Translations under genes and position numbers: made by a program
The notes under the pieces: model-generated
Database searches by the model: none
What the model was told of the DNA's origin: nothing
Seen by the model: the letters and a program-made list of their open reading frames with translations, nothing else
Part shown: positions 16,027 through 49,263 of the stretch, one piece after another
How the letters are laid out: the number at the start of each line of letters is the position of its first letter
Numbering within the stretch: position 1 is the stretch's first letter
Source: a phage
DNA length: 51,874 bases
Strand: one strand, 5' to 3'
Sequence record: PZ386979.1

Positions 16027-19000
16027 ATGGCTGAAAATATGATAACTGGCAGTAAGGGTGGATCATCAAAACCTTATGTGCCGAAAGAGATGGAAGATAA
16101 CCTGATCTCAATCAACAAAATCAAAATCCTTCTTGCCGTTTCCGATGGTGAGTGCGATCCAGATTTCACGCTTCGCGATCTGTATCTCGATGATGTTCCG
16201 GTAATTGCAGATGATGGAACTGTTAACTATCAGGGTGTGAAAGCTGAATTTCGACCTGGAACGCAGACGCAAGATTACATCCAGGGGTTTACTGACACAT
16301 CAAGCGAAGTGACGCTGGCGCGTGACATTACGACAACAAATCCTTATGTAATTTCCGTAACCAACAAAACATTATCGGCTATCAGAATCAAAATGCTAAT
16401 GCCAACAGGCATTAAGCAAGAGGATAACGGCGATCTTGTCGGCGTTAAGGTTACTTATGCTGTTGATATGGCTGTTGACGGAGACTCTTACAAAGAAGTA
16501 TTGCGAGACACTATCGAAGGTAAAACGCGATCAGGTTACGACAGAAGCAGAAGGATTGACCTTCCGGAATTTAATGATCGCGTATTACTTAGGGTTAGAA
16601 GGGTTACGGCAGACAGCACATCCTCTCGTGTTACTGATCTGATTAAACTACAAAGTTACGCTGAGGTTATTGATGCAAAATTCCGTTATCCTCTGACTGG
16701 TCTTGTATACGTTGAATTTGACAGTGAGTTGTTCCCTAACCAGATCCCTAACATTTCAATCAAGAAGAAATGGAAGTTGATTAATGTTCCTAGCAATTAC
16801 GATCCGGTAATGCGAGAGTATCACGGTTCATGGGATGGTACGTTCAAGAAAGCGTGGTCGAACAATCCGGCGTGGGTACTTTATGACATTATCACAAACC
16901 AGCGATACGGATTAGATCAGCGAGAGCTTGGTGTACAGGTTGATAAATGGAGTCTTTACGAAGCGGCGCAATACTGCGATCAGAAAGTTCCTGACGGGAA
17001 AGGCGGTACAGAGCCGCGTTATCTATGCGACGTTGTGATTCAAAGCCAGATTGAGGCTTATCAGCTTATTCGTGATATTTGCTCAATCTTCAGAGGCATG
17101 AGCTTTTGGAATGGAGAGAGCTTGTCAATCGTCATTGATAAGCCGCGCGATCCGTCGTACATCTTCACAAATGACAATGTTGTTGATGGTGATTTTCAGT
17201 ACACAACAGCAAGTGAAAAGAGCATGTACACGCAGTGCAACGTGACGTTCGATGACGAACAAAACATGTATCAACAGGACGTAGAGGGTGTATTCGACAC
17301 AGAGGCCGCATTGCGATTTGGATACAATCCTACAAGCATAACCGCGATCGGATGTACACGCAGGAGTGAGGCTAATCGGCGCGGTCGATGGATACTAAAA
17401 ACCAACTTGCGCAGCACTACGGTAAACTTTGCTACTGGACTGGAAGGCATGATCCCATCAATAGGTGATGTGATTGCTATTGCTGACAACTTTCACAGCA
17501 GCAACCTTAAGTTAAACCTATCAGGGCGAGTGATGGAAGTTTCCGGCTTGCAGGTATTCGTTCCGTTTAAGATTGATGCTAGACCAGGTGATTTCATTAT
17601 CATCAACAAGCCGGACGGAAAGCCAGTTAAGCGCACAATCTCAAAAGTAAGCGGTGACGGAAAAACCATTGAGCTAAACATAGGGTTTGGATTTAAAGTT
17701 AAACCGGACACGGTTTTTGCAATCGACCGCACCGATATTGCTTTGCAGCAATACGTTGTAACGAGTATCGGCAAAGGTGATGATGATGATGAATTTACAT
17801 ACTCCATCACGGCTGTTGAATATGACCCGAACAAATACGACGAGATTGATTATGGAGTAAACATTGACGACAGGCCAACCTCAATTGTCCAGCCTGACAC
17901 AATGGCAGCGCCTGAAAATGTGCAAATATCCTCATACTCGCGAATTGTCCAGGGTGCAAGCGTTGAAACAATGGTTGTGTCGTGGGATAAAGTACCTTAC
18001 GCATCGCTGTATGAAATGCAATGGCGAAAAGGTGATGGCAACTGGCTGAATACACCACAGACCGCAAACAAAGAAATTGAGGTTGAAGGTATTTATTCAG
18101 GAAACTACCAGGTAAGGGTTAGATCTGTTTCTGCTTCAGGTTCTACTTCTCCGTGGTCCAGAATTGTGACAGCATCACTGACTGGTAAGGTAGGAGAGCC
18201 AGGAGCGCCAGTTAACTTAACCGCATCCGACAATGAAGTGTTTGGCATTCGTGTTAAGTGGGGGATGCCAGAAGGGAGCGGAGACACGGCATACATTGAG
18301 CTTCATCAGTCGCCGGATGGAACGGCTGAAAACTCAAGCCTGCTAACGCTGATCCCGTATCCACAATATGAATACTGGCACGGTACGCTTCCGGCTGGTC
18401 ATGTTGTATGGTATCGGATCAGGAGCGTAGACAAGATCGGCAACGTTTCCGGTTGGACTGATTTTGTTAGAGGTATGGCTTCAGATGATGTTGAGGATGT
18501 TTTAGGAGATATTCTTGATAAGATTTTTGATACTGAAGCAGGTCAGGATCTGAAAGAGAACGCCATTGACAGTGCAAACAAGATAAAGGACCAGGCGCAA
18601 GCAATCATCCAGAATGCTCTTGCTAATGATGCTGATATTAAGTGGACGCGAGTACAAAACGGAAAGAGAAAGGCTGAATATGGTCACGCTCTTGAGCTTA
18701 TCGCCACAGAGACTGAGGCGCGAGTTACGCAGATTGAAGAATTGAGGGCGTCAATCGACGAGGATATTGTTTCAAGCATAAAGACAGTGCAGGAGGCTAT
18801 CGCCACAGAATCTGAAACGCGAGCAACTCAAATAAATGCTTTGGATTCAAAATTCACAACTGAAATTGACGGTGTAAAACGCGATACAGCCGCAAGCATT
18901 AATCAAGTGAATCAAACCATTGCCAATGAGTCAGAAGCGCGCGCGCAGGCCGTTAACGCGCTTGATGCGAAGTTCACAAAGGAGATCGAAGATTTAAACG

Positions 19001-19605
19001 GAGTCATTAAGACTGAGGTTGAGGCTAACATCTCTGAAGTGAAACAGGCTATCGCTAACGAGACAGAGGCAAGGGTACAGGCTGACCAGGCGTTAACAGC
19101 TAAGTTTGGAGACGTTGAATCTGCATTAGCTCAAAAACTTGATTCATGGGCTGGCGTATCGTCTGTTGGTGCTAAATACTCAATGAAACTTGGGTTAACT
19201 TACAACGGGCAGAAGTACAGCGCAGGAATGGTAATGCAGCTTTCGCAGAGTTCATCCGGCCTTATCTCGCAAATCTTGTTTGACGCGAACAGGTTCGCGA
19301 TTATGACTAGCTCGACTGGCGGAACGTTTACTTTGCCTTTTGTTGTTGAAAACAACCAGGTTTTCATTAATAGCCTGTTAGTTAAAAACGGTTCAATCAC
19401 AAATGCTATGATCGGTAATTATATTCAGTCGAATAACTTTGTTGTCAATCAGCAGGGTTGGAGGCTGGATAAAAGCGGAAGATTTGAGAACTACGGTTCT
19501 ACATCTGGAGAAGGGGCCATGAAGTTGACAAATGAAACGATAAGTGTACGAGACGCAAACGGGCGCTTGCGTGTTCAGATTGGTAGGCTTACTGGTACGT
19601 GGTAA
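16027..19605 (+). CDS. central tail fiber / host specificity protein J
   Basis: 1192 aa; position after I; C-terminal region with repeated ~25-aa units (ATESETRATQINALDSKFT / ANESEARAQAVNALDAKFT / ANETEARVQADQALTAKFG). Confidence 0.85.
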   Translation: MAENMITGSKGGSSKPYVPKEMEDNLISINKIKILLAVSDGECDPDFTLRDLYLDDVPVIADDGTVNYQGVKAEFRPGTQTQDYIQGFTDTSSEVTLARDITTTNPYVISVTNKTLSAIRIKMLMPTGIKQEDNGDLVGVKVTYAVDMAVDGDSYKEVLRDTIEGKTRSGYDRSRRIDLPEFNDRVLLRVRRVTADSTSSRVTDLIKLQSYAEVIDAKFRYPLTGLVYVEFDSELFPNQIPNISIKKKWKLINVPSNYDPVMREYHGSWDGTFKKAWSNNPAWVLYDIITNQRYGLDQRELGVQVDKWSLYEAAQYCDQKVPDGKGGTEPRYLCDVVIQSQIEAYQLIRDICSIFRGMSFWNGESLSIVIDKPRDPSYIFTNDNVVDGDFQYTTASEKSMYTQCNVTFDDEQNMYQQDVEGVFDTEAALRFGYNPTSITAIGCTRRSEANRRGRWILKTNLRSTTVNFATGLEGMIPSIGDVIAIADNFHSSNLKLNLSGRVMEVSGLQVFVPFKIDARPGDFIIINKPDGKPVKRTISKVSGDGKTIELNIGFGFKVKPDTVFAIDRTDIALQQYVVTSIGKGDDDDEFTYSITAVEYDPNKYDEIDYGVNIDDRPTSIVQPDTMAAPENVQISSYSRIVQGASVETMVVSWDKVPYASLYEMQWRKGDGNWLNTPQTANKEIEVEGIYSGNYQVRVRSVSASGSTSPWSRIVTASLTGKVGEPGAPVNLTASDNEVFGIRVKWGMPEGSGDTAYIELHQSPDGTAENSSLLTLIPYPQYEYWHGTLPAGHVVWYRIRSVDKIGNVSGWTDFVRGMASDDVEDVLGDILDKIFDTEAGQDLKENAIDSANKIKDQAQAIIQNALANDADIKWTRVQNGKRKAEYGHALELIATETEARVTQIEELRASIDEDIVSSIKTVQEAIATESETRATQINALDSKFTTEIDGVKRDTAASINQVNQTIANESEARAQAVNALDAKFTKEIEDLNGVIKTEVEANISEVKQAIANETEARVQADQALTAKFGDVESALAQKLDSWAGVSSVGAKYSMKLGLTYNGQKYSAGMVMQLSQSSSGLISQILFDANRFAIMTSSTGGTFTLPFVVENNQVFINSLLVKNGSITNAMIGNYIQSNNFVVNQQGWRLDKSGRFENYGSTSGEGAMKLTNETISVRDANGRLRVQIGRLTGTW

Positions 19606-19612
19606 AATCAAA

Positions 19613-19636
19613 GCGGGGCATTTGCCCCGCATTTAT
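19613..19636 (+). terminator. hairpin after J (weak T tract)
   Basis: GCGGGGCA/TGCCCCGC 8-bp stem followed by ATTTAT. Confidence 0.4.
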
Positions 19637-19648
19637 GGAGGTTTAATA

Positions 19649-19954
19649 ATGGCTGAATATGGTGTTTCAACGTGGGATGCTAACGGGAAGTATAACAACT
19701 ACGGAATCAAGCCAGTTTCCGTTGTTGGTGTCATTAGCCTTGCGGCTGGTCAGACAAGCGGATCGTGGAGCTTTAGCATTCCAAGTGGTTTTAAGGTTGG
19801 GTATGTTGTTTCGCTTGATGAGGGTGCTAGAGGGGTTGGAAGGGAAATAGTAGCATCTGGAAACACAATAAGAATCAGTCCTACATCTTCAGTTGGTGCA
19901 AATAGATATTCTTCTTCAAAGTGTGAGTTAGTTGTTTTTCTTGAGAGGGCTTAA
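19649..19954 (+). CDS. hypothetical protein (MAEYG family, tail-distal accessory?)
   Basis: 101 aa; GGAGG RBS; starts MAEYGVSTWDANGK; homologous to internal segment of 19956..20594. Confidence 0.5.
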   Translation: MAEYGVSTWDANGKYNNYGIKPVSVVGVISLAAGQTSGSWSFSIPSGFKVGYVVSLDEGARGVGREIVASGNTIRISPTSSVGANRYSSSKCELVVFLERA

Positions 19955-19955
19955 A

Positions 19956-20594
19956 ATGGCTGAATATGGAGCAATGTTATCTTTATCAAATGGGAATCCA
20001 TTTATCACACCAAAATCAACGCCATTTTGCTTATATGGCAAGTACACTTATTCATCTTCTGGAACTTCTGCCTATCATAGCGCAAGCGCAAATATACCAT
20101 TGAATCAATCTTATCCATGTATGGCATTTATAAAAACAACAAACACACAGCAGCCAACTGCATTAATAGCTTACAGGAATGGTGGCAACATTTATGTAAA
20201 CGGAGGAAATCCATATGGTCAATCATTTACAATGACTGTTTATATATTTGCCATATTCCCTCAAACTCTACCCAAATATGGTATGGCTATATGGGATGCA
20301 AGCGGCAAGTTGGTTTTAACTAATGAAAGCAGGGTGCTAACAGATCTTGTTACAATTGGTACTCCTGGTTCTTCAGGTGGAACGAATATAGATCAAACGT
20401 TATCTGGTTCTTATGCCGTTTGCCCTTCAAGGCTTGGTGCGGTTATAGGTATGGGCGCTTCTGATATATATACATCATGCAGGTATAATGGTTCAAGCAC
20501 AAGGATAGGTGCAGCAAGGACAACGCCAGGAACAGGTTCTATAACAAATAACGGAAATTCAATAATTGCAATAAAGACTGATATTTACGACTAA
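19956..20594 (+). CDS. hypothetical protein (MAEYG family, two-domain paralog)
   Basis: 212 aa; N-terminus MAEYGAMLSLSNG and internal KYGMAIWDASGK repeat the motif of 19649..19954; followed by bidirectional terminator. Confidence 0.5.
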   Translation: MAEYGAMLSLSNGNPFITPKSTPFCLYGKYTYSSSGTSAYHSASANIPLNQSYPCMAFIKTTNTQQPTALIAYRNGGNIYVNGGNPYGQSFTMTVYIFAIFPQTLPKYGMAIWDASGKLVLTNESRVLTDLVTIGTPGSSGGTNIDQTLSGSYAVCPSRLGAVIGMGASDIYTSCRYNGSSTRIGAARTTPGTGSITNNGNSIIAIKTDIYD

Positions 20595-20596
20595 TG

Positions 20597-20625
20597 AAAA
20601 GGGGCTTTCGCCCCTTTATTTTTAT
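20597..20625. terminator. bidirectional terminator between tail operon and cor
   Basis: AAAGGGGC-tttc-GCCCCTTT with T-run on plus strand and A-run upstream. Confidence 0.65.
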
Positions 20626-34685: not shown

Positions 34686-34901
34686 ATGAAAGATTTTTTA
34701 AACGCTGCAACTTCCGGCACTTGCGGCGCGTCAATCACTGGCGCGGTAACTGGTCAAACAACTATTGCAATAGCCAGCTTCGTTTTGATGGCTGCATTTG
34801 GTATGTGGGGAGCTTATCTTCGCTGGCGTGATAGTAAGGCGCTACGTGACGCGCTTGAATGCGGTGATATTAAGAAAGCTATTGAGACCAGAGGTAAATA
34901 A
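34686..34901 (+). CDS. holin (small, single TMD; pinholin-like)
   Basis: 71 aa; one hydrophobic helix ([21 protein letters not shown]) then charged C-terminus; AGGAG RBS; directly upstream of endolysin (TAATG overlap). Confidence 0.6.
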
Positions 34902-35389
34902 TGAGTATAAAACAAAGAGTGACCGCTGCGGCTTTTGGCGTTGCTCTTGCCCTTACTTCTCCGCTACTGGAGGAAATAGAAGGAGTAAAACATAAGCCGT
35001 ACAAAGATATTGCTGGGATATGGACGGTTTGCGCCGGAATAACTGGACCTGACGTAATACCAGGTAAAACGTACACACAGAGAGAGTGCGATGCGCTACT
35101 GGCAAAGCATATCAAGATCGCAAAGGATGAAGTTGATAAACGTGTGAAGGTTGAGATTCCTGATACAATGCGCGCGGCAATGTATTCATTCACATACAAT
35201 GCTGGCACTGGTGCTTTCAGAAATTCAACCATGCTTAAGCTGATTAATAAAGGACGTTACATGGAAGCGTGCGATCAGTTATGGCGATGGACAAAATACA
35301 CCAATCCAAAAACAGGAAAGAAAGAAACGTCTAAAGGACTGCGCAACCGCCGCGCTGTGGAATTTAAATATTGCATTAAGGATCTGTAA
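34901..35389 (+). CDS. endolysin (GH24 lysozyme-like, possible SAR type)
   Basis: 162 aa; weakly hydrophobic Gly/Ala-rich N-terminus ([17 protein letters not shown]) then [13 protein letters not shown]...[10 protein letters not shown] lysozyme-like catalytic region. Confidence 0.75.
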
Positions 35390-35391
35390 TT

Positions 35392-35790
35392 ATGAGAAAG
35401 CTATCAGCAATCGCGATCGCTGTTATTTTGTCTGGATGTTCAAGCGTTATGCCACTGACCGGATTAATCGGCAGTAAGCCGGAAATCACAGCACAGGCAG
35501 GAGCAGAGAACGTAAAACAGACCGTCGGCCTTACAGCAAAGCAGGACGCCAGCAGTAAGCAGGATACAACCATTAAAGAGTCGAAAGTTGACACGGTTGA
35601 TACTTCCAACAAAAAAGAGATCAAAACGTCAACCATTCAGGCTAACACCATCAAGGCCGATAAAATCCAGGTCGTGCAGGGGGAGCAAAGGAAGTGGTAC
35701 GATCCTATAATCTATTGCGCTGCAATTTTCAGTGGTCTTTTGACTATGCTTTACTTTTCCTACCGCAAAGATAACAAAAAGGAGGCTTAA
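35392..35790 (+). CDS. unimolecular spanin (T1 gp11-like)
   Basis: 132 aa; N-terminal lipobox LSGC and C-terminal TMD (IIYCAAIFSGLLTMLYF); last gene of lysis cassette. Confidence 0.7.
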   Translation: MRKLSAIAIAVILSGCSSVMPLTGLIGSKPEITAQAGAENVKQTVGLTAKQDASSKQDTTIKESKVDTVDTSNKKEIKTSTIQANTIKADKIQVVQGEQRKWYDPIIYCAAIFSGLLTMLYFSYRKDNKKEA

Positions 35791-41738: not shown

Positions 41739-42007
41739 TTCTTGATCTCCTCAGCAATAAACTTCAGGACTTTGCGCAAAAACACTTCATTATTGATGGT
41801 CGCTGGCAATTCCTCTTTCACTTCTTGCGGCAGGTAAACGTTGCCATGCCAGGTTAAGCAATCGTAGTTGATACGATAAGAGCAAAGCCACTCGCAATCG
41901 TTATCCGCTTCCCAAATGCAGAGTTGCAGAACATCACCTAAATCCTCAACAGTCAGATCCAGACCGTGACGCTTTGCAAAGTTGAAAGTGGTTTTGCTGA
42001 TGTTCAT
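41735..42007 (-). CDS. hypothetical protein (first leftward early gene)
   Basis: 90 aa; CAGGAG RBS; downstream of conserved element and -10 (42042..42085). Confidence 0.5.
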   Translation of the reverse strand: MNISKTTFNFAKRHGLDLTVEDLGDVLQLCIWEADNDCEWLCSYRINYDCLTWHGNVYLPQEVKEELPATINNEVFLRKVLKFIAEEIKK

Positions 42008-42041: not shown

Positions 42042-42085
42042 AATGTACCCGATCAGGCGGATTCAGTTTTAACAAAAAGTGCTAT
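42042..42085 (-). promoter_or_regulatory. conserved element plus -10 (leftward early promoter)
   Basis: Minus-sense ATAGCACTTTTTGTTAAAAC; 18-nt spacer; TACATT; CAGGAG RBS; first gene of leftward early block. Confidence 0.5.
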
Positions 42086-42381
42086 TTGCTGACTGGTCAT
42101 TATTCCTTCTATTCCATTAATCAGGAATAACAGGAATAATTCATTCGCGATCACCTGGATTGTGAGACTTTGAGTTTGATCAATTTTAATCAGTTGATTA
42201 ACTTTTTGTGTGGAGGGGATGGAGAAACGCGGCCCTCTTGCATCCTTTCCGGCAATCCTGGCGCGCGCATCTGTTATTTCTGTTCCCCATGTTATCTCAA
42301 ATAAGCCTCCGCACTTTTAGATAACAGAATCGGCGTTCATCAACAAAAAGAACAAAATAAAATTTATATATATACCAATAA

Positions 42382-42396
42382 AATCAATAAGTTAGT
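42382..42396 (+). repeat. AATCAATAAGTTAGT 15-mer (copy 2)
   Basis: Identical to 21041..21055. Confidence 0.6.
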
Positions 42397-42626
42397 TATA
42401 TATGTATTTATATTTGTTATTTACTGTTGAGCTTGTTCCATGGGTATATGGTGGGTGTTGATGATTCCTTCATTTAACATTTGTACTTTTTATGCGGTTA
42501 TATATATAGATTTTGCGGCATTATCGAGACAACCAGTGAACGAGATTGAACGAGCTTTAAAATCAATCACTTGCGCGCAATTTTGTTATCGCGTCAAAAA
42601 AAGATGTTATTAGAACGAAAAATCAG

Positions 42627-42655
42627 TTGACTACCTGGCTGTGAGTATTGATAAT
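42627..42655 (+). promoter_or_regulatory. sigma70-like early promoter (TTGACT-17-GATAAT) for rightward early operon
   Basis: -35 TTGACT 42627..42632, -10 GATAAT 42650..42655; upstream TTAGAACGAAAAA block shared with promoter at 21298. Confidence 0.6.
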
Positions 42656-42687
42656 GCACGCAGACAAAACGAAAAGGGAGACAGCAC

Positions 42688-42987
42688 ATGACAAAAATGC
42701 TTGCAATAAACCGAAAACTTGAAGTGAAAGAGATGTCACAAGATGATATTGATGATTTGGCGCGCGGCATGACAACAGGTTACATGCGGAGAATTGTCAA
42801 TCACTTGATTAACTCTGAACGAAATAAGGCCGTATACATCAGCATAAATCACGCTGGAGGGAATGCTGCATCAATGCGACAGATGATTAACAACGTGGCA
42901 AAAGAGTTAAATGTTGATGTTAAGACGTTTGTTGTTGATGGATTCCTGGGCCTGGTAATACTTGAAGTTAACGAAGCGTTTGCATAA
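42688..42987 (+). CDS. hypothetical protein (first rightward early gene)
   Basis: 99 aa; AAGGGAG RBS; 30 nt after sigma70-like promoter TTGACT-17-GATAAT. Confidence 0.5.
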   Translation: MTKMLAINRKLEVKEMSQDDIDDLARGMTTGYMRRIVNHLINSERNKAVYISINHAGGNAASMRQMINNVAKELNVDVKTFVVDGFLGLVILEVNEAFA

Positions 42988-42998
42988 GGAGTAAGAGA

Positions 42999-43460
42999 AT
43001 GGAGCAAGAATTTATTAACCGCGCGGCATTTTGCGACACGTTGCGAGATATTGGAAGGGCTATCGGTAGCGGTGAGCGAGAAACCGTATTTATGCCTGAA
43101 ATCTACCTGAGAAGTCGAGTTGAGGGGGGCGAAGCAATTACGGCATCGTACATGCGCCAGGTTGTCAACCGCGTACCTGAAGTAAAGCAAAAAGGCGTGA
43201 TCAGCATTAAGCGAAAGGTGACTGATGAGGGTGATGGCTTTGTGTTTACGCTCACTGAAGCCAAAAGCAAGCCTCGCGTGCTGACTGGAGACGATATAGC
43301 GAAACTTGAAATCAAGTGGCGAGCAAAGTTTATTGCTCAACTTCTGAAAACTCAGCCGAGAATCAGCGACCTGGAAGGCGAGCGCCTGGAGGGTGCGGCA
43401 ATCGCACTTGAGCGAATGAATGAAATGCTTAGCGAGATGGTAAAGATGGGGGATGAATAA
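42999..43460 (+). CDS. hypothetical protein
   Basis: 153 aa; AAGGAG RBS. Confidence 0.5.
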   Translation: MEQEFINRAAFCDTLRDIGRAIGSGERETVFMPEIYLRSRVEGGEAITASYMRQVVNRVPEVKQKGVISIKRKVTDEGDGFVFTLTEAKSKPRVLTGDDIAKLEIKWRAKFIAQLLKTQPRISDLEGERLEGAAIALERMNEMLSEMVKMGDE

Positions 43461-43726
43461 TGAATAAGGCATTAATTGGAGTTTTGATTGCAATCGCTAC
43501 CCTGACCGGATGCGAAAAGGCATCTGAATCAACAGTTGTCGTAGGAGTGGAGTCAGATTTTAAAGTCGGTCGCCTGTTTACTGTTGATGGATGCACTGCG
43601 TACCGATTCTATGATAACGGTCACGCGATCTATTACACCAACTGCAAGGGCACGACTAGCTGGGAAGTGTCGAAAAGCAACGGCAAGGTAACGACAACAG
43701 AACATATGACAGTGGAGACAAAATAG
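43460..43726 (+). CDS. early lipoprotein (putative)
   Basis: 88 aa; signal peptide with lipobox LTGC; stop TAG inside conserved element. Confidence 0.5.
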   Translation: MNKALIGVLIAIATLTGCEKASESTVVVGVESDFKVGRLFTVDGCTAYRFYDNGHAIYYTNCKGTTSWEVSKSNGKVTTTEHMTVETK

Positions 43727-43766
43727 CACTTTTTGTTAAAACTCAAAAACGATAACCAGGCATAAT
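43723..43766 (+). promoter_or_regulatory. conserved element plus -10
   Basis: ATAGCACTTTTTGTTAAAAC containing lipoprotein stop TAG; 18-19 nt spacer; CATAAT. Confidence 0.55.
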
Positions 43767-43821
43767 AAATCACATAGGGCGGCACGGCGTCGCCCAGTTA
43801 AACCAATCAGGAGAAAGCACC

Positions 43822-44715
43822 ATGTTAAAACTTGCTGACATTAAATTCCCGATCACCTTCGAATCTCGTGGTGTTGGTCATTACGTTTTTACAGATGAGA
43901 AAACATGCCATAACGTTTGGTTGCACAGCGATAAGTTAAGCCCATCAACAATGGAGATTCAGCACTTTATTGATGCGCATAATCAGCACTACAACTCAAT
44001 CCGGGACTACGGCTACGCAATGCCAGGCTACACATGCTTGCACTACAAGCCATATAAGGGCCAGGTGTTACCAGTGCGCTCACCGGAACGCGCAGAGATT
44101 CCAATGGTCCATATGAAAACATGCGACTACAAAAAGCTGTGGTGCTTAAGTGTGGACAATATCAAGTATCCGATCACGTTCCACACGACTGGCAAGTTAA
44201 CGATTCGCTACACATCGCGCGACAATGGCGTTTATAGCGATGGTACGAAATCAGAGTTGAAAGTTGATTTCTTTGTCAATGGTCACAACAAATTCAATCC
44301 GCACAACGAAGAGGATAAAGTGTATTACGTGGAAGACATTACAAAACACTTGTTTGGAGAAACTCCATTCGGCGGCGGGAAGACGGCAATTCAGAAAATC
44401 ATTGGCGAGGAGATCCATAAAGCGGCTGTCGAAATGAAAGCGCCTGGAGGCTGGCGTATTGACAAGAGCGCCTTTGCCTATCAAGAAATCGTAACGCAGG
44501 GCGCGATTGAAGATATGCCAGTTACAGCCACGCTAAAAGGAGTCCGGCTTGATGACGGCAGTTGGTATGAATTAACAGCTACACCAAAGACGATCGAAAT
44601 TCATGATGATGTTGTTATCCTTCTGCTTCACTACGGCGGCACTAAAAACCGGACTGTTGCAGGTGAGATCCGCATCAAGCGCGGAGCGATGGTTAAGTGG
44701 AAGGTGAAGATTTGA
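43822..44715 (+). CDS. hypothetical protein with internal duplication
   Basis: 297 aa; two related segments (LADIKFPITFESRG ... / VDNIKYPITFHTTG ...); CAGGAG RBS. Confidence 0.5.
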   Translation: MLKLADIKFPITFESRGVGHYVFTDEKTCHNVWLHSDKLSPSTMEIQHFIDAHNQHYNSIRDYGYAMPGYTCLHYKPYKGQVLPVRSPERAEIPMVHMKTCDYKKLWCLSVDNIKYPITFHTTGKLTIRYTSRDNGVYSDGTKSELKVDFFVNGHNKFNPHNEEDKVYYVEDITKHLFGETPFGGGKTAIQKIIGEEIHKAAVEMKAPGGWRIDKSAFAYQEIVTQGAIEDMPVTATLKGVRLDDGSWYELTATPKTIEIHDDVVILLLHYGGTKNRTVAGEIRIKRGAMVKWKVKI

Positions 44716-48512: not shown

Positions 48513-48757
48513 AACGAATCTTTAAACCTGAATACCGGATCGTTGCTTGCACAGAATGCAAGATTTATTATCTGCAACGCCGCCGCGTTATTAGTGGGGA
48601 TTGGGAATATCTGACTGATGATGCTTTCGGCTTTTGGGCTATGGAGTTCAATAGCTACAGCGAAGCGCGTGAGTACGCTAAAAAGTTGCACAAGTTCAGA
48701 CCTTACAAGCTGCGTTTGCTGGTTGTCAAAAAATGCGATGTGTTGGATCACGAATGA
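48494..48757 (+). CDS. hypothetical protein
   Basis: 87 aa; CxxC pair (CTEC). Confidence 0.4.
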   Translation: MVFNALKRIFKPEYRIVACTECKIYYLQRRRVISGDWEYLTDDAFGFWAMEFNSYSEAREYAKKLHKFRPYKLRLLVVKKCDVLDHE

Positions 48758-49263
48758 AAAGAGTAATTATCATTTTTATTGCCATTATCGCTGGTTGCTA
48801 CCTGGCTTATAATTATAGCGGCATTGTTGAGTCAATCGGCAGGTTGATTATCTTCATGGCTGGCGGGTATGCTGGCTATTATGATGGATTCGAAAACGGA
48901 AAGCGTTACATGCTTACCGGAAAAAGAAGTAATGTTAACCGCGCCGCTTCGGTGGCGCTAAAAGGAGGAAACAAAATGGCTAAAAGCAATCGTAAAATGT
49001 TGATTAACGCATTCGAAAAGGCGGCGCTTGAGCGTGGTTGGAATGACTCATTTCACACAGCAAACTGTATCCGCCGTTACGGATTCAAGAATTGCCGATC
49101 CTGGGCGCGTCAAATGGCTTCATGGTATGATCTTGATGCGCATTACCTTGATATGGATTGCGCCCTGGTTGAAATGATTGAGCAGGCAGCATTAGAGGAT
49201 CGACCATTAACGCAATCTGATTTTGACGATTTTGTGCGCGATGAAATCTATTACATGAGCTAA
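48754..49263 (+). CDS. membrane/lipoprotein-like protein (putative)
   Basis: Start ATG 48754 (ATGA overlap); N-terminal hydrophobic segment with lipobox-like IIAGC; stop abuts conserved element. Confidence 0.45.
   Translation: MKRVIIIFIAIIAGCYLAYNYSGIVESIGRLIIFMAGGYAGYYDGFENGKRYMLTGKRSNVNRAASVALKGGNKMAKSNRKMLINAFEKAALERGWNDSFHTANCIRRYGFKNCRSWARQMASWYDLDAHYLDMDCALVEMIEQAALEDRPLTQSDFDDFVRDEIYYMS

What the first reader, a model, noticed from the sequence alone, without database searches (positions are those of the whole stretch)
43460..43726. Second lipoprotein, encoded in the early region
88-aa protein with lipobox LTGC and two Cys pairs, in the rightward early operon. An early lipoprotein could mask the receptor before lysis (as T5 Llp) or act on the envelope; it is distinct from the Cor-like gene.
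Basis: inference. Interest (0 to 1): 0.45.

Follow-up and report, generated by a model that had tools for sequence, protein, structure and literature searches.

The report
Early phage DUF4884 lipoprotein gene
This is a real, conserved 88-residue lipoprotein gene of a T1-like coliphage that belongs to a large phage-borne family of unknown function (DUF4884); it is unrelated to the receptor-blocking Cor/Llp proteins, and its role in the cell envelope is untested.

Summary
The ORF 43460..43726 (+) is real and encodes an 88-aa protein with an N-terminal signal peptide and the lipobox LTGC. There are three Cys: the lipid-attachment C18 and one pair, C45/C62, which co-vary across the family like a disulfide.

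The window is a nearly complete Hanrivervirus (Drexlerviridae) genome. It also encodes a true Cor next to the tail-tip genes and a u-spanin, so this is the third lipobox protein, not the second.

The protein belongs to Pfam DUF4884 / PHROG 6360. The family has about 1,450-1,600 sequence clusters, nearly all 76-120 aa with a lipobox. Every context examined was a phage or prophage, always in early or small-gene regions and never beside receptor-binding or lysis genes.

A confident AlphaFold model (pLDDT 87) shows a six-strand beta meander with no significant match in the PDB. Nothing beyond the signal peptide resembles Cor or Llp. The gene is absent from T1 and present in phages with a different receptor locus, so an Llp-like mask of the phage's own receptor is unsupported.

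My best reading is an early, outer-membrane, periplasm-facing lipoprotein that acts alone on a conserved envelope component. The function itself is inferred. The finding is ordinary to moderately interesting.

The parts
42627..42655 (+). Sigma-70-like promoter (TTGACT-17-GATAAT) at the head of the three-gene unit
   Evidence: Consensus scan, 10/12 match. The -35 and -10 are positionally conserved in Fulano1, JakobBernoulli and Rtp despite a diverged spacer; in Henu8 only the -35 is seen. Function is inferred, not shown.
42688..42987 (+). First gene of the unit, 99 aa, unknown function (PHROG 28623)
   Evidence: Present in Fulano1 but absent from JakobBernoulli and Henu8, where DUF7174 is the first gene.
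42999..43460 (+). DUF7174 gene (153 aa), whose stop overlaps the lipoprotein start codon (TAATG)
   Evidence: Pfam PF23796, E 1.2e-42. The same adjacency is seen in Fulano1, Henu8, JakobBernoulli and Rtp. It is not seen in Serratia or Pseudomonas phages that carry DUF4884.
43448..43453 (+). Shine-Dalgarno-like GGGGGA, 6 nt before the ATG
   Evidence: Read directly from the sequence.
43460..43513 (+). Signal peptide with lipobox (residues 1-18, MNKALIGVLIAIATLTGC); C18 is the predicted lipid-attachment residue
   Evidence: Lipobox rule met. The Cys is invariant across the family. It is a helix in both AlphaFold models.
43514..43723 (+). Mature domain (residues 19-88): short linker, six-strand antiparallel beta meander, C45/C62 pair, conserved core RLFTVDGCTAYRFYD..IYYTNCKG and a G75-K76 turn; the C-terminal hairpin varies between lineages
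   Evidence: Pfam DUF4884, E 3.5e-5. PHROG 6360, E 6.5e-12. Model with pLDDT 87. Conservation profile. Cys co-variation: both Cys 165, neither 20, one only 1. Recombination breakpoint near codon 66.
43724..43726 (+). TAG stop codon
43725..43742 (+). Copy of the repeated element AGCACTTTTTGTTAAAAC, marking the start of the next transcription unit (ATG at 43822); it overlaps the stop codon
   Evidence: 14 copies in the window against 0.05 expected by chance. All lie upstream of a -10-like hexamer; in most of them an RBS and ATG follow 55-97 nt downstream. T1 has 11 copies.
43777..43795 (+). GC-rich hairpin GGGCGGC-ACGGC-GTCGCCC in the 95-nt gap after the gene, with no clear T tract
   Evidence: Single occurrence, and the region does not fold better than shuffles (z -0.47). 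Role unknown.

Best explanation
The gene encodes a small secreted lipoprotein of the DUF4884 / PHROG 6360 family.

Steps read from or supported by the data:
- It is a genuine coding gene under purifying selection.
- It has a classical lipoprotein signal peptide with an invariant lipobox Cys.
- The mature 70 residues form a six-strand beta meander. A co-varying Cys pair (C45-C62) sits at the open end of the beta3/beta4 hairpin, as expected for a periplasmic disulfide.
- The family is carried by phages and prophages of Gram-negative hosts. It sits in early or small-gene regions with no conserved neighbour, so the protein probably acts on its own.

Inferred steps:
- It is transcribed by host RNA polymerase from the conserved sigma-70-like promoter at 42627-42655, soon after DNA entry. 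This unit lies at what is the physical left end of T1 and Rtp genomes.
- It is exported by Sec, lipidated by Lgt, cleaved by LspA and acylated by Lnt.
- Because residue +2 is Glu and not Asp, Lol should send it to the inner leaflet of the outer membrane, facing the periplasm.
- The invariant core (L39, F40, Y48, R49, F50, D52, Y58, G75-K76) is shared by phages of several gamma-proteobacterial genera and by many uncultured relatives. The gene's presence is independent of receptor class. The most likely target is therefore a conserved envelope component, not the phage's own receptor.
- The most likely benefit is protection of the infected cell during the lytic cycle, by exclusion of secondary phage attack at a periplasmic step or by envelope stabilisation.
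- The variable, recombining C-terminal hairpin may tune specificity.

My confidence by tier:
- Real lipoprotein of this family: about 0.9.
- Outer membrane, periplasm-facing, disulfide-bonded: about 0.7.
- The functional statement: about 0.35.
For: - ORF, SD and start/stop overlap.
- Lipobox rule.
- Family membership: Pfam E 3.5e-5; PHROG 6360 E 6.5e-12; 36 close homologs with an invariant lipobox and Cys pair; 1452 representatives at E<=1e-3; 1604 hits all pre-annotated PF16225; 85/87 aligned relatives hit DUF4884.
- Cys statistics: lipobox Cys 184/186; C45/C62 both present 165, both absent 20, one only 1.
- Purifying selection: 10 synonymous to 1 non-synonymous codon change.
- Model: pLDDT 87.2, strands 24-28, 34-42, 45-52, 55-60, 64-73, 78-87.
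- Promoter and its conservation.
- Position near the physical genome end in T1 and Rtp records.
- Phage or prophage early-region contexts: lambdoid nin region after O/P; end of an early operon next to int; small-gene arrays of large and medium phages; Serratia and Pseudomonas phages.
- No plasmid copies.
- Independence from receptor class.
- +2 residue: Glu here, variable in the family, Asp in only 11/186.
- The rule that only Asp at +2 retains E. coli lipoproteins in the inner membrane is established knowledge (Yamaguchi 1988; Seydel 1999), cited from memory.
Against: - No experiment or structure ties the family to any target. The library search for 'DUF4884' found only two papers, neither functional.
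- Fold searches gave nothing significant, so the mechanism has no structural analogue to lean on.
- The window protein alone scores below Pfam's gathering cut-off (23.9 against 30 bits).
- Timing of expression is inferred from promoter type and genome position only. I found no transcriptome for a Drexlerviridae phage.
- A conserved core does not exclude a variable, receptor-specific surface in the swapped C-terminal hairpin.
- The gene is accessory: about 105 of 843 Drexlerviridae-type records carry it. Whatever it does is dispensable for the family.
Confidence: 0.4

Rival explanations
1. Llp/Cor-like mask of the phage's own terminal receptor (probably FhuA): the lipoprotein binds the periplasmic face of the receptor early, so that no further phage can adsorb or inject.
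For: - General layout resembles Llp and Cor: a small lipoprotein with no Asp at +2 and one Cys pair in the mature part.
- Early-type promoter.
Against: - The phage already has a true Cor (56% identical to T1 Cor; PHROG 1119 E 5e-29) in the canonical cassette after gpJ.
- No similarity to Cor or Llp beyond the signal peptide. Llp (8A60) is not among the fold hits.
- T1, which uses FhuA and has Cor, lacks the gene.
- JeanPiccard, whose terminal receptor is LptD (PMC8594841) and which has a different RBP locus, carries it.
- It is never adjacent to RBP genes.
Confidence: 0.08
2. Mask of a second, different outer-membrane protein used by competing phages (heterotypic exclusion). The conserved core would serve as scaffold and the exchangeable C-terminal hairpin as the specificity determinant.
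For: - Sharp recombination breakpoint near codon 66. Nucleotide identity to JakobBernoulli and Henu8 falls from 79-100% to 48-58%.
- Signal-peptide types and C-terminal types reassort among Drexlerviridae.
- The C-terminal 65-88 is the most variable part apart from G75-K76.
- Known small phage outer-membrane lipoproteins that are not spanins are mostly receptor blockers (knowledge of Llp and Cor; PMC13164509).
Against: - Mosaicism is common in phage early genes and need not reflect selection for specificity.
- No linkage to any RBP type.
- No candidate receptor.
- The invariant polar and aromatic residues lie in the core, not in the hairpin.
Confidence: 0.2
3. Counter-defence: the lipoprotein neutralises a host envelope-located sensor or defence system early in infection.
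For: - Sits among early accessory genes that in other phages include anti-restriction and anti-defence functions, such as Lar_restr_allev next to it in one contig and an Acb2/Tad1-like gene in the same prophage.
- Accessory distribution.
Against: - No match to any PADLOC model, although those describe defence rather than anti-defence proteins.
- No conserved partner.
- Most known anti-defence proteins are cytoplasmic.
- Purely inferential.
Confidence: 0.15
4. Lysis or envelope-remodelling accessory, such as a spanin-like partner or a regulator of lysis timing.
For: Outer-membrane lipoproteins are components of phage lysis systems (Rz1, the T1 gp11 u-spanin); this is established knowledge.
Against: - The complete lysis cassette (holin, endolysin, u-spanin) lies 8 kb away at 34686..35790.
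- The protein has no C-terminal transmembrane segment and no proline-rich segment.
- None of the other contexts places it in a lysis cassette.
Confidence: 0.07
5. Obligate two-gene module with the translationally coupled upstream DUF7174 protein.
For: Start/stop overlap, and conserved adjacency in Hanrivervirus, Warwickvirus-like phages and Rtp.
Against: - DUF7174 has no signal peptide.
- Serratia and Pseudomonas phages and prophages carry DUF4884 without DUF7174.
- The linkage is therefore lineage-specific synteny.
Confidence: 0.05
6. Not a functional lipoprotein: a chance ORF, or an uncleaved membrane anchor.
For: No experimental evidence of processing.
Against: - More than 1,400 family clusters with an invariant lipobox Cys.
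- Synonymous excess.
- Co-varying Cys pair, which implies an oxidising compartment.
Confidence: 0.03

Closest known systems
Pfam PF16225 (DUF4884) / PHROG 6360, small lipoproteins of unknown function
   Same: - Same length class, lipobox and core motif (LF.vDGC.vYRF.D...Y[FY]TnC.G...GK).
- 85/87 aligned relatives hit the Pfam model.
- Close relatives are already deposited as 'DUF4884 domain-containing protein'.
   Different: - The window protein itself scores below Pfam's gathering threshold (23.9 against 30 bits).
- It lacks the second Cys pair (CGKNC) that ~40% of members have.
- No member has a known function, so membership explains nothing about mechanism.
T5 Llp (PDB 8A60) and T1/phi80/N15 Cor, receptor-blocking superinfection-exclusion lipoproteins
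   Same: - Small phage-encoded lipoprotein predicted to go to the outer membrane.
- One Cys pair in the mature part.
- Expressed from its own or an early promoter during lytic growth.
   Different: - No sequence or fold similarity outside the signal peptide.
- Not encoded beside the receptor-binding protein.
- Presence does not follow receptor class.
- The window has a separate true Cor.
Rz1 o-spanins and the T1 gp11 u-spanin
   Same: Phage lipoproteins with a lipobox that are sorted to the outer membrane.
   Different: - Not in the lysis cassette.
- No C-terminal transmembrane segment and no proline-rich extended region.
- The window has its own u-spanin at 35392..35790.
Lambda Bor (TraT-like lipoprotein moron)
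   Same: Small phage-borne outer-membrane lipoprotein that is not needed for virion production.
   Different: - Bor is expressed from the prophage and sits in the late region.
- DUF4884 genes sit in repressed early operons of prophages and in virulent phages.
- The families are different by Pfam assignment.
T4 Sp (spackle) and P1 Sim, periplasmic exclusion proteins acting after adsorption
   Same: Exported early proteins that protect an infected cell at a periplasmic step independent of the receptor. This is the kind of action proposed here.
   Different: - They are not lipoproteins, and no homology was detected.
- The comparison is by analogy only and rests on my own knowledge.

Membership tests
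Bacterial lipoprotein (Lgt/LspA substrate) | Lipobox [LVI][ASTVI][GAS]C with the Cys at residue 15-35, preceded by a hydrophobic stretch without charges and a basic residue in the first 7 | tested here: met
   L15-T16-G17-C18, K3, h-region A4-A13; the PROSITE-type rule is satisfied.
Bacterial lipoprotein (Lgt/LspA substrate) | Lipobox Cys conserved in homologs | tested here: met
   184/186 and ~100% of 233 distant members.
Bacterial lipoprotein (Lgt/LspA substrate) | Lipid modification and globomycin-sensitive cleavage shown experimentally | not testable with these tools
   Needs labelling or globomycin experiments.
Pfam DUF4884 (PF16225) | Score at or above the curated gathering cut-off (30 bits) | tested here: inconclusive
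   23.9 bits, E 3.5e-5, residues 32-61 on profile positions 3-34 of 49. Below the cut-off but significant.
Pfam DUF4884 (PF16225) | Homology to recognised members by profile search | tested here: met
   - All 36 close homologs and 1604 profile hits carry a precomputed PF16225 assignment.
- 85/87 aligned relatives hit the model, best E 3e-11.
Pfam DUF4884 (PF16225) | Family-invariant residues present (L39, F40, G44, C45, Y48, R49, F50, D52, Y58, C62, G64, G75, K76) | tested here: met
   All are present in the window protein.
Cor / Llp superinfection-exclusion lipoproteins | Sequence similarity of the mature part to Cor (PHROG 1119) or Llp (8A60_B) | tested here: not met
   - No PHROG 1119 hit.
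- hhalign against the window's Cor aligns 23 signal-peptide columns only.
- The profile finds no Llp among PDB sequences.
Cor / Llp superinfection-exclusion lipoproteins | Fold similarity to Llp | tested here: not met
Cor / Llp superinfection-exclusion lipoproteins | Gene adjacent to the receptor-binding-protein locus downstream of the J-like tail tip gene | tested here: not met
   - The gene is 23 kb from the end of gpJ (19605).
- The Cor cassette occupies that place.
- The same holds in JakobBernoulli.
Cor / Llp superinfection-exclusion lipoproteins | Blocks infection through a specific outer-membrane receptor | not testable with these tools
   Needs adsorption and plating assays.
Spanins (o-spanin / u-spanin) | Encoded in the lysis cassette; a C-terminal transmembrane segment (u-spanin), or embedded in or next to an i-spanin gene (o-spanin) | tested here: not met
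   - The lysis cassette is at 34686..35790 with its own u-spanin.
- The target ends ...TTTEHMTVETK, with no hydrophobic segment.

The most novel reading that the evidence does not exclude
DUF4884 proteins would be a new, receptor-independent class of early phage envelope effectors. In this reading a lipid-anchored beta-meander docks onto a component conserved in Gram-negative bacteria, for example the TonB system or the periplasmic face of TonB-dependent transporters, the Lpt or Bam machines, Tol-Pal or peptidoglycan. This would shut the envelope to further phage DNA entry during the lytic cycle, and the recombining C-terminal hairpin would tune specificity. It would add a third functional class of phage outer-membrane lipoproteins beside receptor masks (Llp, Cor) and spanins.
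Probability: 0.2. Interest if true: 0.65.

Novelty: new member of a known kind. Interest (0 to 1): 0.3.

Why it matters
The gene itself is not new. Near-identical proteins are already deposited as hypothetical or DUF4884 proteins. What the analysis adds is a sharper picture of the family:
- It is large: about 1,450 clusters at 50% identity.
- Every context examined was a phage or prophage.
- Its members are almost always lipoproteins.
- It sits in early regions and is independent of receptor type.
- It has no solved structural relative and no characterised member.

That makes it a reasonable, cheap candidate for expression and exclusion screens in E. coli. If it acts on a conserved envelope component, it would reveal a new way for phages to condition the envelope early in infection. 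For annotation, the practical gain is small: call it a DUF4884 family lipoprotein, not a Cor/Llp homolog.

Tried and rejected
- **DUF7174 as an obligate partner.** BLASTP and Pfam on the upstream genes of Serratia and Pseudomonas phages found no relation. Rejected as a general module.
- **A defence-system component.** PADLOC gave no hit.
- **NCBIfam.** Only a signal-peptide-level hit to a Staphylococcus lipoprotein family at E 0.14, which I ignored.
- **Plasmid carriage.** None found.
- **Structured RNA on either strand.** Rfam found nothing in the whole window. The post-gene hairpin does not fold better than shuffles.
- **The 26-nt inverted repeat bracketing 42062-43746.** It first looked like the ends of a mobile cassette. 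It resolved into two divergently oriented copies of a promoter-associated element that has 14 copies in the window.
- **Genome-collection scan.** The first attempt with the broad alignment failed for lack of a conserved stretch. The narrower one used a single strict peptide pattern, so its 11 loci undercount bacterial and prophage copies.
- **Literature.** No functional paper on DUF4884 and no transcriptome of a Drexlerviridae phage turned up in the library.
- **Receptor assignments for individual BASEL phages.** These could not be read from the text, apart from LptD for Bas01 and Bas02.
Full report
**What the window is.** The 2.2 kb around the finding is 96.4% identical to Escherichia phage vB_EcoD_Fulano1 (Drexlerviridae, Tempevirinae, Hanrivervirus), and 120 phage records match. 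The ORF map follows the T1-like plan:
- terminase, head and tail genes on the + strand;
- a J-like tail tip gene at 16027..19605;
- replication genes;
- a holin/endolysin/u-spanin cassette at 34686..35790;
- a leftward block ending at 42007;
- a ~540-nt non-coding gap;
- a rightward block of small genes from 42688 to the end.

In the T1 and Rtp records, which start at the physical genome end, the same rightward block begins 539-546 nt from the left end. The finding therefore lies about 1.3-1.6 kb from what is probably the physical end of the packaged DNA. That last step is inference.

**Checking the observation.**
- ORF 43460..43726 (+) is present, starts with ATG and encodes 88 aa.
- A GGGGGA Shine-Dalgarno lies 6 nt upstream. 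The ATG shares its A with the TAA stop of the upstream gene.
- The N-terminus MNKALIGVLIAIATLTGC has one basic residue, an uncharged hydrophobic core and the lipobox LTGC, with the Cys at residue 18. It passes a PROSITE PS51257-type rule that I applied to every possible ORF start in the window.
- The protein has three cysteines, not two pairs: C18 in the lipobox, plus C45 and C62.
- The same scan, together with PHROG searches, shows two other clear lipobox proteins.
  - Cor at 20626..20853 (-): PHROG 1119, E 5e-29; 56% identical to T1 Cor over its full length; a weak full-length match to T5 Llp 8A60_B.
  - The u-spanin at 35392..35790: PHROG 1804, E 2e-50.
- A fourth candidate at 48754..49263 has IAGC but stays hydrophobic after the Cys, so it is doubtful.
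- The gene is therefore the third lipobox protein. The coordinates, length and lipobox hold; the cysteine count and the word 'second' do not.

**It is a real gene.**
- 36 close homologs of 86-95 aa keep L[TA]GC, C45 and C62 and an invariant core RLFTVDGCTAYRF.D....YYTNC.G.
- Against JakobBernoulli, codons 1-64 differ by 10 synonymous and 1 non-synonymous codon changes.
- The overlapping minus-strand ORFs showed no sign of being genes, and Rfam finds no RNA family anywhere in the window.

**What family it is.**
- Pfam gives DUF4884 at E 3.5e-5, but at 23.9 bits it is below the 30-bit cut-off. PHROGs gives family 6360, unknown function, at E 6.5e-12.
- A profile of the close homologs, searched against 1.84 billion representatives, finds 1452 proteins at E<=1e-3 and 411 at E<=1e-10. 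Nearly all are 76-120 aa.
- A profile of 87 diverse members, searched against 5.8 billion proteins, finds 1604 at E<=1e-5, all pre-annotated PF16225. 85 of those 87 members hit the Pfam model on their own.
- Across 233 distant members:
  - the lipobox Cys is ~100% conserved;
  - L39, F40, F50 and D52 are ~100%;
  - Y48, R49 and Y58 are 97-99%;
  - C45, C62, G44 and G64 are about 91%;
  - G75 and K76 are about 88-89%;
  - the linker (19-33) and the C-terminal third are variable.
- C45 and C62 are both present in 165 sequences, both absent in 20, and only one is present in 1. This is the pattern expected of a disulfide, and it implies an oxidising (periplasmic) location.
- About 40% of members have a second pair (CGKNC, positions 74 and 78). 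This protein has N and T there.

**Structure.**
- With the shallow alignment the AlphaFold model was mediocre (pLDDT 69). With 87 diverse sequences it is confident (pLDDT 87.2, pTM 0.61).
- Both models give the same topology: a signal helix, then six antiparallel strands in a meander (24-28, 34-42, 45-52, 55-60, 64-73, 78-87).
- If residues 52 and 55 pair across the beta3/beta4 turn, the register puts C45 opposite C62. This is consistent with a stapling disulfide, but I inferred it from the strand boundaries and did not measure it.
- The profile finds no solved relative by sequence.

**Where the family lives.**
- tblastn finds the gene in 121 phage records. Most are Drexlerviridae: Hanrivervirus, the Warwickvirus PeterMerian, Rtp (gene rtp3) and Veterinaerplatzvirus.
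- It also occurs in Serratia myoviruses (MyoSmar, MTx, SMP), Pseudomonas phage Jeremy, and Pantoea and Xanthomonas phages.
- The lipobox and Cys pair are kept in the distant copies that I translated.
- It is accessory within Drexlerviridae. 843 records carry a related portal, roughly 105 carry this gene, and T1 itself has neither it nor DUF7174.
- No plasmid carries it.
- Bacterial chromosomal copies examined are in prophages:
  - 2.5 kb from an integrase in Pseudomonas faucium;
  - directly after the O and P replication genes, in the nin region of a lambdoid prophage in Pantoea;
  - at the end of an early operon about 150 nt from int in another prophage.
- In a ~124-kb phage contig it sits among small genes next to a Lar-like anti-restriction gene and T4-type RNA ligase. 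Three further phage contigs show it in arrays of small unknown genes.
- In none of these contexts is it next to tail-fibre, receptor-binding or lysis genes, and no neighbour is conserved.
- The upstream DUF7174 gene is translationally coupled to it throughout Drexlerviridae. It is absent from the other lineages, so the pairing is lineage synteny, not a general module.

**Expression.**
- A TTGACT-17-GATAAT site at 42627-42655 precedes the three-gene unit 42688..43726.
- The -35 and -10 keep their positions in Fulano1, JakobBernoulli and Rtp while the spacer diverges; in Henu8 only the -35 lies within the aligned stretch.
- The unit ends at a copy of a repeated element, AGCACTTTTTGTTAAAAC, that overlaps the TAG stop.
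- This element occurs 14 times in the window against 0.05 expected by chance and 11 times in T1. Every copy lies 17-19 nt upstream of a -10-like hexamer. In most copies an RBS and ATG follow 55-97 nt downstream of the element; the two copies inside the structural-gene block (6328 and 10089, minus strand) precede no obvious gene.
- It reads as a second, family-specific promoter class. One copy precedes cor. The lipoprotein and Cor therefore appear to belong to different regulatory classes.
- 'Early' rests on promoter type, the position at the genome end and the early-operon location of prophage homologs. I found no transcriptome that tests it.

**Testing the receptor-mask idea.**
- The window already has the T1-type cassette after gpJ: ST32-like, ST31-like and Cor. 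A recent paper describes this cassette as a consistent feature of FhuA-targeting BASEL phages (PMC13164509).
- The DUF4884 profile aligns to the window's Cor only over 23 signal-peptide columns.
- T1 (Cor, FhuA) lacks DUF4884.
- JeanPiccard carries it. Its terminal receptor was assigned to LptD (PMC8594841), and its RBP locus is quite different, with two minus-strand genes including another lipoprotein.
- The invariant residues are shared with phages of Pseudomonas, Serratia and Pantoea.
- Together these points make an Llp-like mask of the phage's own receptor unlikely. They do not exclude masking of some other outer-membrane protein.
- One observation keeps that door open. The gene is mosaic. 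The window and JakobBernoulli are 85-100% identical at the nucleotide level up to about codon 66 and 48-58% after it. The window's C-terminal hairpin recurs in a lineage whose N-terminal part differs (P0014).

**Most likely mechanism.**
- Shown or directly read:
  - a conserved gene for a protein with a lipoprotein signal peptide;
  - a co-varying Cys pair;
  - a beta-meander domain;
  - carried by phages and prophages in early-region contexts;
  - independent of receptor class.
- From established knowledge of E. coli lipoprotein biogenesis:
  - Sec export;
  - Lgt, LspA and Lnt processing at C18;
  - Lol-dependent transfer to the outer membrane, because residue +2 is Glu and not Asp.
- Inferred:
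  - The domain faces the periplasm and binds a conserved envelope component through the invariant R49/D52/K76 and aromatic patch.
  - This protects the infected cell during the lytic cycle.
- I put about 0.9 on the lipoprotein and family statement, 0.7 on outer-membrane localisation with a disulfide, and 0.35 on the functional statement.
- The rivals are a mask of a second receptor, counter-defence, a lysis accessory, an obligate pair with DUF7174, and a non-functional ORF. They are listed with their refuting tests in the Rival explanations section.

**Comparison with known systems and novelty.**
- It works most like the small phage outer-membrane lipoproteins Llp and Cor in biogenesis and probable location. 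It fails every testable membership criterion for that family: sequence, fold and gene position.
- It is not a spanin.
- It is a member of DUF4884 / PHROG 6360, a catalogued family with no characterised member.
- The library holds only two papers that mention DUF4884. One is a gene table for phage Henu8. The other is a Bacteroides glycoproteome that lists BT_3183.
- I therefore rate it a new member of a known kind, with modest interest. The proposed Llp-like role is not supported. The real open question is what this widespread early lipoprotein family does, and that needs experiments.

Noticed in passing
window 6328, 10089, 20908, 38464, 39140, 41193, 42066 (- strand) and 29275, 31799, 32840, 43725, 44943, 46607, 49265 (+ strand); L018 (T1), 11 copies: The 18-nt element AGCACTTTTTGTTAAAAC occurs 14 times against 0.05 expected by chance. 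Each copy is followed after 17-19 nt (often a site-specific GC-rich inverted repeat) by a -10-like hexamer, and in most copies by an RBS and ATG. It looks like a family-specific promoter or operator class, and one copy precedes cor. In the T1 record, hairpins right after some copies are annotated as terminators. It may correspond to the repeats reported upstream of genes in phage Rtp (from memory).
   Followed up: partly
window 42062-42087 and 43721-43746: A 26-nt inverted repeat, 96% complementary, brackets the divergent control region plus the three-gene unit that ends with the lipoprotein. It turned out to be two oppositely oriented copies of the element above, not the ends of a mobile cassette.
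   Followed up: yes
window 19544-20853: T1-type receptor cassette after the J-like gene: an ST32-like gene (about 19650-19954), an ST31-like gene (19932..20594, PHROG 425) and a true Cor lipoprotein (20626..20853, minus strand; 56% identical to T1 Cor, 96% to JakobBernoulli bas07_0026). This suggests FhuA as the terminal receptor.
   Followed up: partly
window 48754-49263 (+): A 169-aa protein (PHROG 8758, unknown function) has an N-terminal MKRVIIIFIAIIAGC that fits the lipobox rule. Hydrophobic sequence continues after the Cys, so it may be a membrane anchor and not a lipoprotein.
   Followed up: partly
window 43655-43726 (codons ~66-88 of the lipoprotein gene): There is a recombination breakpoint inside the gene. 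Nucleotide identity to JakobBernoulli and Henu8 falls from 79-100% to 48-58% after about codon 66. Signal-peptide types and C-terminal hairpin types reassort among Drexlerviridae homologs.
   Followed up: partly
P0036 (59 aa, on five contigs up to 51 kb): A natural in-frame deletion allele in which the lipobox LTGC is fused directly to the GC of the DGC motif (MSKSLIGVLIAIATLT-GCTAYRF...). It removes the linker and beta1-beta2 and leaves a single Cys partner, so it is probably a decaying copy.
   Followed up: no
window 42150-42688: A ~540-nt AT-rich non-coding gap lies between the divergent gene blocks, with TATATATA-type inverted repeats (42359-42374 and 42499-42514). Its length equals the untranslated leader at the physical left end of the T1 and Rtp records, so the pac site or genome end probably maps here.
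   Followed up: no
phage collection hits: About 20 records named 'Campylobacter phage' (host given as C. jejuni; for example A16a, MG065636) are 90-99% identical to this coliphage lineage. They look like T1-like coliphages that were mis-assigned or are contaminants.
   Followed up: no
L025 7237-8857: In one metagenomic phage contig the DUF4884 gene overlaps at both ends with glycosyltransferase genes (Glycos_transf_2 upstream, GT_PLOD downstream). This was the only context with functionally named immediate neighbours.
   Followed up: no
window 42999-43460: The DUF7174 gene is translationally coupled to the lipoprotein gene throughout Drexlerviridae (it is rtp1 in Rtp) and is absent from T1. 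It has no signal peptide and its function is unknown.
   Followed up: partly
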